Assembly: GCA_024236095.1 (NCBI GenBank)
Contig: JACKLD010000012.1
Span: forward strand, 149,695 to 213,694
Source: Pseudomonadaceae bacterium
GTDB taxonomy: Bacteria > Pseudomonadota > Alphaproteobacteria > UBA2136 > UBA6156
Reading direction: 5' to 3'
DNA length: 64,000 nt
Shown here: piece after piece, positions 45,001 to 48,000 of the stretch
Layout: every line of letters begins with the position of its first letter
Position numbering within the stretch: the first letter of the stretch is position 1
Made by a program: the position numbers

Positions 45001-48000
45001 GATAGCCGCCAGCTTGGGCAACGCCGCCATGAATGCGGTCACCGGCGTTGGCGCCCCTTGGTACACGTCGGGCGTCCACATGTGGAACGGCACCACCGAC
45101 AGCTTGAACAACACCGCCAACACGGTCAACGCCAGCCCCACACTCAGCAGCGGCCACGGCATCCCCCCCTGCCCCAGCGCCACCATCAGGCTGGCAAACT
45201 GGGTGGTGCCGGTAGCGGCGTACACCAGCCCCACGCCAAACAACAACAGCCCACTGGCCAGGCCGCCCAGCACGAAGTATTTCAACGCAGCCTCACTGCT
45301 TTCCGCCCTGTCACGCAGCATGGCGGCCATGATGTAAAGCGGGAAACTCATCAGCTCCAGCCCCATGTACATCGGCAAAAAGTCTTGTGCGGCGGTCAAA
45401 ATGAACATCCCGCACAAACTCAGCAGCATCAGCGTGTAAATCTCGGCTCTGTGGGCTTTGCGCCCTTCAAAGAACGGCTCGGCCAACAACGCCACCGGAA
45501 TCGCCAACACCAACAGCAATACCTGCGCCAACTGGGTGAACGGACTGAACCCCAGCAACGCCCCCTGCCCCAGCACAAAGGCGCTGCCCATGGCAGGCTT
45601 GGTGAGCATCGGCACCAACAGCATGGCCAAGCCAAAACAGGCGAACGCCGCCGTGGTGCGGGCACTGCCGCCAAACGCGCCGTACATCAACAGCACCAAA
45701 GCCCAAACGGCCAGAAAAATGGTAGGGAAAAGAAGAGTGAGGTCGGTCATTTTGTCTGCTCTGGTTCAGGTTGATAGGTTTTACGCATTTTGAAAATATC
45801 GATCACGGTGCCATTTCCAAACGTATGCTTGGCCTGTTCAACAACCTCAAATCCCATTCTCTCGTAGAACGGACGGGCGGTTATCGTGGCATCAATATCG
45901 CAAGTGTTTGACGGGGTATGTTCCATCATGTCTTTTTCAGCTGCTTCAAACAAACGTCGTGCAAGCCCTTTGCCCGCATAGTCCGGGTGCATGTAAAACC
46001 CGTACATGCACCCCGGCACCCAACCTGCAAACCCGCCAATCGTTCCGTTGTCATCCAAAACCCAGAAAGTTTCCCCCTTGGTCTGCATGGAATCAACATA
46101 TTTCTCAGGTGCAATACGCCCTGCCCAAACGTCAATTTGCTGGGGCGCATAATCCTTCGCAACAATCCGACGAATCGACTCTCTGTGCGCTTCCGCAATA
46201 CCGACTTCATCTCCCGGTTGGTAACGGCGGATGATGTAATTACTCATGCACCCCCCCTCCATCGCTCTGGGTTCCAGCCTGCGCGGGAATGACGGTAGGA
46301 GTAACGTGTTCCGTCGCCACCATCGCTTCCACCGGCGCCCGCCACATGTCCATCGCTTCCACCGGCGCCCGCCACATGTCCATGGCAAGGCCGGGGAGGA
46401 TGCCCAACAGCGGAACAAGGATGATGAGCGGGGCGAAAATCAGGCTTTCGCGCCACCCGAGGTCGGGCAGGTCGCGCTTGTGCTTTTCCACAAAAGCACT
46501 GGGCGTGCCAAACACCATTTTGCGGTACAGCCACAGCATGTACAGCGCGCCGAAGATAACGCCTGTGGTGGCCACGGCGGTGGCAACCGGCGCGGCGGGG
46601 AAACTTCCCGCAAGGCTTAAAAACTCGCCCACAAAGCCGTTGGTGCCGGGCAAGGCCACGGCGGCCAGCGTCAAGGTCATCAACACAAAAGCGTAGCGTG
46701 GCATGTACACCACCAACCCGCCGAATTTGGTGAGGTCACGGGTGTGCAACCGCTCGTAAACCACGCCGATGGCAAGGAACAGCCCCGCCGAGACAATCCC
46801 GTGGTTCAGCATCACCAGCAGGCCGCCATGCAGGGCGGTTTCCCCTCCCCCCAGCGGCGCGGCAAACAGCGCCAGTGTTACCAGCCCCATGTGCGAAACC
46901 GAGCTGTAGGCAATCATCTTCTTGATATCGGTTTGCGCGTACGCCACCAGTGCCGCATACACCACGGCAATCGCTGAAAGCACAAAAATGAACGGCGCAA
47001 AGTGGGCGCTGGCTTCCGGCAACATCGGCAAGCTGAAGCGCAAAAAGCCATAGGCCCCCATCTTGAGGAGCACGCCTGCCAAAATCACACTGCCCGCCGT
47101 GGGCGCCTGCACGTGGGCATCGGGCAACCAGGTATGGAACGGCCACATCGGCACCTTCACCGCAAAGGCGGCAAAGAAGGCGAGGAACACCAGCTGCGCG
47201 GCCAACGGCGACATCAACGCGGGGTTCTCACGCAGGGCCGCTGTCAACGCGGGGATATCAAACGTGCCCGCCTGCGCGTACAGATACAAAATCGCCACCA
47301 GCATCAGCACGCTGCCCACAAAGGTATAGAGGAAGAACTTCAGCGCGGCATAAACCCGCTTCTCGCCCCCCCAGATGCCGATGATGAGGAACATCGGGAT
47401 CAGCATCGCCTCCCAGAACACATAAAACAAAATGAAGTCCAGTGCGGCGAACACGCCCATCACCGCCGCCTCCAGCGCCAAAAAGCTGGCGAAGAAATAC
47501 TTCGGCCGGTCGGTCAGGTTCCAGCTTGCCAGCAGGCACAGCGGGGTCAGCAACGCGGTCAGCAGCATCAACGGCAGGCTGATGCCATCCACCCCCAACA
47601 GATACGTCAAACCAAAGCTGGGCACCCACGGCTTGCGTTCCATCAGCTGGTAGCCCCCCTGTGCGGGGTTGAAGTGCCAGCCCACATAAGCCGCCAGCAA
47701 CAGCGTCACCACACTCACAAACAGCGCCGTGCGCTTGGCGTTGTACGCCTGCTGCGCGGCGTTGGGGTGGCTCACCAGCAGCGTCAGCAACGCCCCCAGC
47801 AGCGGCAGGAAAATCAGCGTGGTCAGTGGTGGGAGCGGGAAAGTCATGCCGTCACCTCATTTATCCAATTCAAATACGGCGCATGGCCATGAGAGACGGA
47901 CCATGCGATGATTTCAGGCGTGTCATACGTATGGTTGGCGCGGATGGCGGCCTCCACCTTCTCCCACAGCGCGGCGCGGGTTTTGATGGTGAGGGTGATT

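What the first reader, a model, noticed from the sequence alone, without database searches (positions are those of the whole stretch)
46262..46400. nuoM 3' end: perfect 30-bp tandem duplication plus a repeat-derived C-terminal tail
catcgcttccaccggcgcccgccacatgtc occurs twice (46321-46380), giving MDMWRAPVEA-MDMWRAPVEA in NuoM. The reading frame then runs through a palindromic repeat copy (46270-46296), adding ...TPTVIPAQAGTQSDGGGVHE before the stop at 46240. The GNAT gene starts 4 bp later. A perfect duplication implies a very recent event. The tail is translated repeat sequence.
Basis: seen in the sequence. Interest (0 to 1): 0.5.

Follow-up and report, generated by a model that had tools for sequence, protein, structure and literature searches.

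The report
Duplicated, repeat-built tail of NuoM
The end of a respiratory complex I gene (nuoM) carries a fresh in-frame 30-base tandem duplication and then reads through an old copy of a known selfish hairpin repeat (NTS/SRM); this looks like tolerated wear in a dispensable protein tail, not a new mechanism.

Summary
A perfect 30-bp unit occurs 2.13 times at 46320-46383, in frame in nuoM (46240-47847, minus strand), giving MDMWRAPVEA twice (residues 489-508). None of 120 NuoM homologues, nor five related loci read at the DNA level, has the duplication: all carry one AMDxW..PV motif. Two Logan (k=31) assemblies of runs SRR12358675 and SRR12358676 break at exactly the base predicted if the repeat junction is present in the reads. 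An assembler artefact is therefore unlikely.

The "palindromic repeat" at 46267-46294 is an NTS/SRM hairpin repeat, the published target of SsnA GIY-YIG single-strand nucleases. There are 11 copies in the window, and three NTS-ssnA-NTS units lie between nuo genes. It encodes T518-D529 (TVIPAQAGTQSD). The last six residues come from the ribosome-binding site and start codon of the downstream GNAT gene, which overlaps nuoM by 8 nt; it does not start "4 bp later".

The repeat-derived tail is old. The same repeat sits in the same frame in one relative, is decayed in another and is inverted in a third. Best reading: a recent slippage duplication at ATGG microhomology in a variable, probably periplasmic tail. 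Ordinary; low interest.

The parts
46240..47847 (-). nuoM (NADH-quinone oxidoreductase subunit M), 535 aa, stop TAA at 46242-46240
   Evidence: Pfam PF00361/PF01059. NCBIfam NF004499 above its cutoff. Best solved relative is Paracoccus Nqo13, 8qby_M, 1.8e-146. Gene order is nuoL-cutA-nuoM-GNAT-nuoN.
46320..46383 (-). Perfect tandem duplication, 30 bp x 2.13. Coding copies are 46383-46354 (residues 489-498) and 46353-46324 (residues 499-508), bounded by ATGG microhomology.
   Evidence: TRF score 128, 100% matches. 0 of 100 shuffles. Absent from all homologues examined. Logan k=31 contigs break at 46349, as simulated for 2 or more copies.
46297..46323 (-). Native post-motif tail codons MVATEHVTP (residues 509-517)
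   Evidence: VAT after the VEA(L/M) motif is shared with L087 (EALVATSSS).
46262..46296 (-). NTS/SRM hairpin repeat copy (SRM pattern match 46267-46294) in 'CGTCATTCC...' orientation on the coding strand. It encodes T518-D529 (TVIPAQAGTQSD). One stem pair is broken.
   Evidence: Fits the published SRM search pattern (PMC11893778). 34/35 identical to the left repeat of the ssnA-like unit at 51344-51378. The hairpin is not more stable than shuffles, z -0.17, against -2.7 for intact copies.
46256..46260 (-). GGAGG ribosome-binding site of the GNAT gene, 8 nt before its ATG, translated as part of the NuoM tail (G530-G531)
   Evidence: Read directly from the sequence.
46240..46247 (-). ATGAGTAA: the GNAT start codon (46247-46245) overlapping the last nuoM codons and the stop (H534 E535 *)
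   Evidence: The same CATGA(G/A)TAA ends nuoM in L001, L086 and L099.
45747..46247 (-). GNAT acetyltransferase gene (166 aa), a compositional outlier. Its stop overlaps the nuoN start (ATGA).
   Evidence: Pfam PF13673 3.5e-19. GC about 0.49-0.52 against about 0.62 in the flanking genes. GC3 0.56 against 0.8. Orthologues lie inside nuo operons of relatives.

Best explanation
The 3' end of nuoM records three events of different age in a tolerant part of the gene.

(a) Old event. An NTS/SRM hairpin repeat, the repeat family recognised by SsnA-type GIY-YIG nucleases, landed in the DNA encoding the C-terminal extension that follows the last transmembrane helix. The repeat has no stop codon in 5 of 6 frames, so the ORF simply reads through it (TVIPAQAGTQSD).

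(b) The ORF continues through the ribosome-binding site of the downstream accessory GNAT gene. It ends at a TAA inside ATGAGTAA, so nuoM termination and GNAT initiation overlap (translational coupling).

(c) Very recent event. Replication slippage or unequal exchange between two ATGG tetranucleotides 30 nt apart duplicated ten codons (MDMWRAPVEA) of the only conserved motif of the tail.

The tail is inferred to be periplasmic and outside the conserved antiporter-like core, so all three changes are near-neutral. Nothing indicates a new function.

Shown: the sequence features, their uniqueness or sharing among relatives, the identity of the repeat family, and a read-level signature of the duplication.

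Inferred: the slippage mechanism, neutrality, periplasmic location and translational coupling.
For: Duplication:
- It is perfect and in frame.
- ATGG lies at both unit borders.
- It is unique among 120 homologues and among related loci.
- Logan contigs L084 and L085, from two runs and identical to the window, begin exactly k-1 = 30 nt into the repeat. Logan uses distinct 31-mers. The simulation reproduces that start only with 2 or more copies or a mixture.

Tail tolerance:
- The motif aligns to residues 479-493 of 513 in Paracoccus Nqo13, after the last membrane helix.
- Tails of relatives are 25-60 aa, low in complexity and not alignable with one another.

Repeat identity:
- All 11 window copies fit the published SRM pattern, against 0.5 expected.
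- Three copy pairs bracket GIY-YIG ORFs, as described for NTS-ssnA-NTS.

Age of the repeat-derived tail:
- L087-L089 have [13 protein letters not shown] from the same repeat in the same frame.
- The L086 tail is a decayed in-register homologue: 24/48 nt, permutation p about 0.001; local match to the repeat p about 0.009.
- L099 has an SRM copy in the opposite orientation inside the tail.

Coupling: 8-nt and 4-nt overlaps link all junctions from nuoL to nuoN.
Against: - No raw reads were seen. The Logan break proves a branch at that node, not the copy number, and the runs may be the same data the MAG was built from.
- A single-nucleotide polymorphism at the base after the 30-mer could in principle give the same break.
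- Neutrality is assumed. Between the window and L087 the repeat-encoded segment is 31/39 nt identical, with mismatches mostly at third codon positions. That is the same pattern as the conserved nuoM body and could mean the peptide is under selection.
- Periplasmic location rests on general knowledge of complex I topology and the K/R-rich preceding loop, not on a test here.
Confidence: 0.7

Rival explanations
1. Assembly artefact: the genome has one copy, and the assembler expanded a short repeat.
For: The sequence comes from a single MAG. The 90% protein cluster has one member on one contig. No other assembly contains the full nuoM 3' end.
Against: Logan assemblies of two separate runs, made with a different assembler at k=31, break exactly at the node where the repeat junction creates a branch. 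A one-copy allele gives no break in simulation. A 64-bp periodic tract is shorter than the large k-mers and reads used by common metagenome assemblers, so they would span it (my own knowledge).
Confidence: 0.07
2. Population polymorphism: one-copy and two-copy (or more) alleles coexist in the sampled population, and the MAG shows one of them.
For: A mixture gives the same k=31 break as a fixed duplication. Very young slippage alleles are commonly polymorphic (my own knowledge).
Against: Nothing speaks directly against it. This refines the main explanation rather than replacing it.
Confidence: 0.3
3. Functional tail: the NTS copy is kept for a role (the peptide it encodes, a SsnA target inside the operon, or an mRNA element controlling GNAT translation), and the duplication lengthens a useful periplasmic segment.
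For: - The same repeat sits in the same frame in L087-L089.
- It is 31/39 nt identical to the window copy. Mismatches are 1, 2 and 5 at codon positions 1, 2 and 3, like the conserved gene body.
- The hairpin is not maintained: the same stem pair is broken reciprocally in the two lineages. This fits constraint on the protein rather than on the DNA structure.
- Orientation-specific NTS flanks are intact.
Against: - The L086 copy has decayed at both DNA and protein level.
- L001 and more distant relatives lack it.
- L099 carries the repeat in the other orientation, giving a different peptide.
- The variable positions of the repeat family happen to fall on third codon positions in this frame, which mimics purifying selection.
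- The RNA hairpin is not stable, z -0.17. There is no Rfam match.
Confidence: 0.12
4. Footprint of mobile-element or nuclease activity: the 30-bp duplication is a target-site duplication left by an excised element, or a repair product of an SsnA cut next to the NTS.
For: The duplication lies 23 nt upstream of the NTS. SsnA cuts single-stranded DNA a few nucleotides 5' of an NTS. The ssnA-like unit at 51 kb is flanked by an imperfect 17-18-nt direct repeat of the nuoJ end.
Against: The expected cut site (about 46298-46301) is 20 nt from the duplication border. No element sequence lies between the copies. The ATGG microhomology at the borders is sufficient for simple slippage. SsnA has not been shown to mobilise DNA.
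Confidence: 0.05

Closest known systems
NTS/SRM hairpin repeats and SsnA GIY-YIG single-strand nucleases (Chenal et al., Nat Commun 2025, PMC11893778)
   Same: The repeat in the nuoM tail fits the published SRM search pattern and is 26/28 identical to the Neisseria NTS consensus CGTCATTCCCGCGMAVGCGGGAATCYRG. The window also has three NTS-ssnA-NTS units, each a 94-96-aa single-domain GIY-YIG ORF bracketed by inverted copies.
   Different: Here the copy lies inside a coding sequence and is translated. The paper reports only 2% of NTS inside genes in N. meningitidis. The host is an uncultured lineage whose NuoM is nearest to alphaproteobacterial and Magnetococcales-type sequences, not Neisseria. 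No nuclease activity was tested here.
Rickettsia palindromic elements (RPEs) inserted in frame into protein-coding genes
   Same: A short palindromic selfish repeat without stop codons becomes part of an ORF and adds a peptide to a housekeeping protein (review PMC10969869).
   Different: RPEs are about 150 bp and usually insert internally. Here a 28-35-bp hairpin sits in a C-terminal extension, and the ORF ends in the leader of the next gene.
REP/BIME and REPIN-RAYT systems
   Same: Short hairpin repeats, singly or as inverted pairs (52038-52105), are concentrated between genes of operons. A small nuclease-type gene is flanked by its own repeats.
   Different: The associated gene is a GIY-YIG nuclease, not an HUH tyrosine transposase. 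Mobility of NTS repeats has not been demonstrated.
Microhomology-mediated tandem duplication (replication slippage)
   Same: A perfect head-to-tail duplication whose unit is bounded by a short direct repeat (ATGG), in frame by chance or by selection.
   Different: Nothing unusual. It happens to duplicate the only conserved motif of the NuoM tail.
NuoM / Nqo13 / ND4 of respiratory complex I
   Same: Full-length match to the family, and the same operon position between nuoL and nuoN.
   Different: There is a C-terminal extension of about 40 aa beyond the region aligned to solved structures. Accessory genes (cutA, GNAT) are spliced into the operon with overlapping stop/start codons.

Membership tests
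NuoM (complex I subunit M) | Proton_antipo_M core, with a full-length match to NuoM-specific models | tested here: met
   PF00361 3e-81 and PF01059. NCBIfam equivalog NF004499, 624.9 bits against cutoff 585, residues 8-509. 8qby_M 1.8e-146.
NuoM (complex I subunit M) | Located in a nuo operon between nuoL and nuoN | tested here: met
   nuoL 48155-50146, nuoM, nuoN 44299-45750, with cutA and GNAT interposed.
NTS/SRM repeat | Matches the published degenerate SRM search sequence, including the oriented flanks (GTC upstream, C after the palindrome) | tested here: met
   46267-46294 (minus) CGTCATTCCCGCGCAGGCTGGAACCCAG matches. 11 matches in the window against 0.5 in shuffles.
NTS/SRM repeat | Forms a stable hairpin | tested here: not met
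   One stem pair is broken (TTCCCGC / GCTGGAA). Fold z-score -0.17, against -2.65 and -2.71 for the copies at 51 kb. This counts as a degenerate member.
NTS/SRM repeat | The genome encodes an SsnA homologue flanked by the same repeats | tested here: met
   GIY-YIG ORFs at 51053-51337, 56433-56723 and within 53779-54237, each bracketed by inverted copies.
NTS/SRM repeat | Bound and cut as single-stranded DNA by the cognate SsnA | not testable with these tools
   Requires a biochemical assay, as in PMC11893778.
SsnA (Ssn family, cd10448) | Single-domain GIY-YIG protein of about 94 aa | tested here: met
   94 and 96 aa, PF01541 2e-17 and 1e-13, no other domain. No NCBIfam name.
SsnA (Ssn family, cd10448) | Assignment to CDD cd10448 or to the Ssn clade | not tested
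In-frame palindromic-element insertion (RPE-like) | The repeat lies inside an intact ORF, in frame, without a stop codon | tested here: met
   The ORF is continuous from 47847 to 46240 through 46262-46296. The same holds in L087-L089 and L099.
In-frame palindromic-element insertion (RPE-like) | The repeat-encoded peptide is present in the mature protein | not testable with these tools
   Needs proteomics of the NuoM C-terminus.
GNAT acetyltransferase (downstream gene) | GNAT fold domain | tested here: met
   PF13673 3.5e-19, PF13508, PF00583. No equivalog-level NCBIfam assignment.

The most novel reading that the evidence does not exclude
In this uncultured clade the end of nuoM may be a recurrent landing pad for NTS/SRM repeats. 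The repeat-encoded peptide (VIPAQAG(I/T)QSDG) would then have been co-opted as a selected part of the periplasmic tail of complex I subunit M, or the intragenic NTS would be kept as a SsnA target that shapes recombination and gene shuffling inside the nuo operon. The fresh 30-bp duplication would be one more step in building new coding sequence from selfish DNA and slippage.
Probability: 0.15. Interest if true: 0.5.

Novelty: new member of a known kind. Interest (0 to 1): 0.25.

Why it matters
The finding matters little by itself. It is a clean, datable example of how the C-terminal tail of an essential membrane protein grows and turns over:
- capture of a selfish hairpin repeat;
- read-through into the leader of a neighbouring gene;
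- microhomology-mediated duplication.

It also extends the recently described NTS/SsnA system to an uncultured lineage. It shows that NTS copies can persist inside a coding sequence across species, which the original study found to be rare.

For annotation, it is a reminder that peptides of the 'VIPAxAG' type at protein ends are translated NTS repeats. It also shows that k=31 contig breaks in Logan can serve as indirect read support for short tandem duplications.

Tried and rejected
- **Species-level alleles, genome contigs.** It returned only relatives at 55% identity or less and not the source genome.
- **Species-level alleles, metagenomes.** A degenerate pattern for MDMWRAPVEAM found nothing. 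A looser pattern found only ISL3-type transposases that share AMDMW.PYVEA by chance.
- **Exact NuoM in other assemblies.** Not on record. Logan contigs carrying cutA stop inside the 5' part of nuoM and do not reach the repeat.
- **Protein search with the C-terminal 97 aa.** Only 3 hits; one of them led to L099.
- **A second repeat remnant at the GNAT 3' end or nuoN leader.** Rejected: the local alignment is no better than 85 of 500 shuffles.
- **RNA structure formed by the duplicated tract.** Rejected: z +0.21, and no Rfam family in 45000-52500.
- **The GNAT or Ser_hydrolase of the closest relative L001 as orthologues of the window GNAT.** Rejected: BLASTP E 0.02 and 0.68.
- **The GNAT 5' end as derived from an ssnA 5' end** (shared ATGAGT...TTACATCAT). 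Not pursued: GNAT orthologues have the same N-terminal strand without it.
- **The GIY-YIG/hairpin association as a new mobile-element class.** Rejected as a novelty: published in 2025.
- **Synonymous-looking differences between the window and L087 repeat copies as proof of selection.** Not accepted: the repeat family's variable sites coincide with third codon positions in this frame.
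Full report
**1. What is in the sequence**

The minus-strand ORF 46240-47847 (535 aa) is NuoM. The evidence:
- Pfam Proton_antipo_M at 3e-81.
- NCBIfam equivalog NF004499 above its cutoff.
- The best solved relative is Paracoccus denitrificans Nqo13, 1.8e-146.

Gene order on the minus strand is nuoL (48155-50146), cutA (47844-48158), nuoM, a GNAT acetyltransferase (45747-46247) and nuoN (44299-45750). All are joined by overlapping stop and start codons.

Tandem Repeats Finder gives 46320-46383, period 30, 2.1 copies, 100% identity, score 128. This is the top array in the window. The 30-mer occurs twice and never in 100 shuffles. The unit is bounded by ATGG on the coding strand (CCAT at 46320, 46350 and 46380).

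The duplication is in frame. MDMWRAPVEA is residues 489-498 and again 499-508. It is followed by MVATEHVTPTVIPAQAGTQSDGGGVHE and TAA at 46242-46240.

The GNAT start codon is at 46247-46245, so ATGAGTAA is shared by both genes. A GGAGG lies 8 nt upstream of that ATG.

**2. Is the duplication real and recent?**

Among the 120 best NuoM homologues, only the window protein has a tandem repeat in its last 130 residues, apart from a 6-aa low-complexity repeat in one other. All have a single AMDxW..PV motif. The same is seen at the DNA level in:
- L001 (GCA_049297695.1; NuoM 79% identical over the full protein);
- L086 (NuoM 78% identical over the last 286 aa);
- L087-L089;
- L099.

The exact protein forms a one-member cluster on one contig.

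Indirect read support comes from the GNAT protein. It is also encoded on Logan contigs from two runs, SRR12358676 (L084) and SRR12358675 (L085). Both are 100% identical to the window, and both begin with exactly one 30-nt period (ACATGTGGCGGGCGCCGGTGGAAGCGATGG) followed by unique sequence. That start is window position 46349.

Logan contigs contain each 31-mer only once. In a k=31 graph a one-copy allele gives one unbroken unitig. Two copies, three copies or a 1+2 mixture all give a GNAT-side unitig starting at precisely that base. The repeat-junction 31-mer is therefore present in the reads of both runs.

An assembler artefact is unlikely. Copy number and polymorphism remain open. Perfect identity plus absence from all relatives supports a very recent origin. 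ATGG microhomology at the borders fits replication slippage (inference).

**3. What the "palindromic repeat" is**

The 46262-46296 segment belongs to a family with 11 copies in the window, 9 of them inside the nuo operon. Three inverted pairs each bracket a small GIY-YIG ORF:

| Flanking repeats | GIY-YIG ORF | Position |
|---|---|---|
| 51014-51035 and 51354-51375 | 51053-51337, 94 aa | between nuoJ and nuoK |
| 53721-53742 and 54129-54150 | within 53779-54237 | between nuoG and nuoH |
| 56400-56421 and 56753-56774 | 56433-56723, 96 aa | upstream of nuoG, on the nuoF side |

A literature search on the repeat sequence itself led to Chenal et al. 2025 (PMC11893778). They describe the Neisseria NTS repeat (CGTCATTCCCGCGMAVGCGGGAATCYRG) and its wider SRM class. 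They also describe the gene these repeats flank, ssnA, a 94-aa single-domain GIY-YIG nuclease. It binds the repeat as single-stranded DNA and cuts a few nucleotides upstream.

All 11 window copies match their degenerate SRM pattern, against 0.5 expected. Two copies match the strict NTS.

The nuoM copy (46267-46294) is 34/35 identical to the left repeat of the 51-kb unit, including the inner flank CCCAGAGCGA. It has one broken stem pair, and its hairpin is no more stable than shuffled sequence, z -0.17 against about -2.7 for intact copies.

On the strand read by nuoM the repeat has no stop in any of the three frames, and in only one of the three frames on the other strand (read directly from the sequence). 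It encodes T518-D529. G530-E535 come from the GNAT ribosome-binding site, spacer and start codon.

**4. History of the tail**

Tails after the conserved motif are 25-60 aa, low in complexity and mutually unalignable in this clade. The repeat-derived part is nevertheless old:
- **L087-L089.** NuoM ends ...[21 protein letters not shown]. It is encoded by GTCATTCCAGCCCAAGCGGGAATCCAGAGCGA in the same frame.
- **L086.** It has the same nuoM-GNAT-nuoN order. Its tail (...RVLPVQLDTLDKQAVQHE) is a decayed in-register homologue: 24/48 nt, permutation p about 0.001; local match to the repeat p about 0.009.
- **L099 (GCA_964591415.1).** It has an SRM copy in the opposite orientation inside the tail (LDPSLRWGDA), plus a decayed forward copy upstream.
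- **L001.** It has none in the tail, but it carries an SRM copy followed by CCAGAGCGAGG...ATG in front of another accessory gene in its nuo operon.

Between the window and L087 the repeat segment is 31/39 identical, with 1, 2 and 5 mismatches at codon positions 1, 2 and 3. The conserved nuoM body shows the same pattern, 0.78/0.87/0.61 identity. The same stem pair is broken in reciprocal ways in the two lineages.

This could reflect selection on the peptide. However, the repeat family's own variable sites fall on third codon positions in this frame, and the L086 copy has decayed. I therefore treat it as weak evidence.

**5. Context**

- GNAT is a compositional outlier: GC about 0.50 against 0.62, and GC3 0.56 against 0.8.
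- Its orthologues (51-73% identical) sit inside nuo operons of relatives at different places: nuoM-GNAT-nuoN in L086; nuoM-ORF191-GNAT-nuoN in L087; nuoH-GNAT-nuoI in L091 and in a JGI contig.
- nuoM ends in CATGA(G/A)TAA in the window, L001, L086 and L099. The next feature is GNAT, an unrelated hydrolase, GNAT, and only a spacer, respectively. This is unexplained.

**6. How it works (best reading)**

The motif aligns to residues 479-493 of 513 in Paracoccus Nqo13, after the last membrane helix. From established complex I topology (14 helices, both termini periplasmic) and the K/R-rich loop before the last helix, the tail should be periplasmic and outside the conserved core. This is an inference.

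The region therefore tolerates insertion, read-through and slippage. The overlap ATGAGTAA, with an upstream GGAGG, suggests translational coupling of GNAT to nuoM (inference). No RNA family or significant RNA structure is present.

Rival readings carry lower weight and are set out in the rivals section: artefact, polymorphism, functional tail, and a nuclease or mobile-element footprint.

**7. Novelty and verdict**

Every component is of a known kind:
- slippage duplication;
- NTS/SRM repeats with SsnA (published 2025);
- palindromic repeats translated in frame, as with Rickettsia RPEs.

What is mildly new is an NTS copy kept inside a coding sequence across species. Such copies were reported as rare, 2% in N. 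meningitidis. So is the density of NTS-ssnA-NTS units and accessory genes inside a nuo operon of an uncultured lineage.

Interest is low (0.25). Classification: new member of a known kind.

Noticed in passing
window 51013-51376, 53720-54151, 56399-56775: Three NTS-ssnA-NTS units lie between nuo genes (nuoJ/nuoK, nuoG/nuoH, and upstream of nuoG). Each is a 94-96-aa GIY-YIG ORF bracketed by inverted SRM repeats. Each unit has its own compensatory stem variant: TTCCAGC/GCTGGAA or TCCCCGC/GCGGGGA.
   Followed up: partly
window 52038-52105: Two SRM copies lie back to back, 12 nt apart, with no ORF between them (REPIN-like), between nuoI and nuoJ. Both match the strict Neisseria NTS consensus.
   Followed up: partly
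window 50990-51010 and 51392-51420 (flanks of the 51-kb ssnA unit): The unit is flanked by an imperfect direct repeat of the nuoJ 3' end and nuoK ribosome-binding site (ACGGTGGAGGAGAAGTGA / ACCGTGGAGGAGAAGTAG). This resembles a long target duplication, but it is offset from the repeat ends by 6-16 nt.
   Followed up: no
window 50010-50051 (nuoL codons about 30-46); also 34024-34083 and 35546-35579; L001 5350-5380: A tandem octamer array (TCGAACAY, about 5 copies) lies inside nuoL. It encodes an extra RRSNIRTLEHSNIRDT in the first cytoplasmic loop, which is absent from NuoL of L001, L002 and L003. A similar octamer array (TCCAACAC, 3.9 copies) inserts TLQHSNI-type residues into nuoM of L001. 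Related arrays lie near SRM copies at 34 and 35.5 kb.
   Followed up: partly
window 50150-50668 and 56812-57186: Two ORFs inside the nuo operon have very low GC (GC3 0.35; local GC 0.32-0.40 against 0.6) and no Pfam match. The first looks like a lipoprotein (MKNMLIGIMMIGLAGC). They are likely foreign insertions between nuoK/nuoL and nuoF/nuoG.
   Followed up: no
window 44299-50146; L001, L002, L003, L086, L087, L091: In this clade the nuo operon is interleaved with accessory genes (cutA, GNAT, peptidase S51, Ser_hydrolase, DUF3977, NUDIX, PRA-PH, pyrophosphatase, a P-loop ORF). They are joined by ATGA or 8-nt overlaps, and the set and positions differ between relatives. The GNAT family in particular moves within the operon.
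   Followed up: partly
window 46240-46248; L001 5626-5634; L086 854-862; L099 3481-3489: nuoM ends in CATGA(G/A)TAA in four lineages. The downstream feature is GNAT, an unrelated hydrolase, GNAT, or a 50-nt spacer before nuoN. The string occurs only once in the 64-kb window (0.15 expected).
   Followed up: partly
window 56332-56407: An imperfect 30-bp tandem array (2.5 copies, 75% identity), with unit CCACCCGCGTCATTCCCGCACAAAGCCCCT, lies next to the 56.4-kb SRM copy. It looks like tandem partial NTS half-sites.
   Followed up: no
L099 3490-3530: Downstream of nuoM in GCA_964591415.1 lies a different palindromic repeat type (GCGTCATTGCGAGCCAAGCGCAG). It is translated as MSNHLRHCEPSAV from the relic ATGAGTAA start.
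   Followed up: no
whole window (source label): NCBI names the source 'MAG: Pseudomonadaceae bacterium'. Its NuoM, however, is closest to MAGs labelled Alphaproteobacteria and to Magnetococcales (55%). It also matches Paracoccus Nqo13 far better than E. coli NuoM (1.8e-146 against 1.3e-97). The taxonomic label is doubtful.
   Followed up: no
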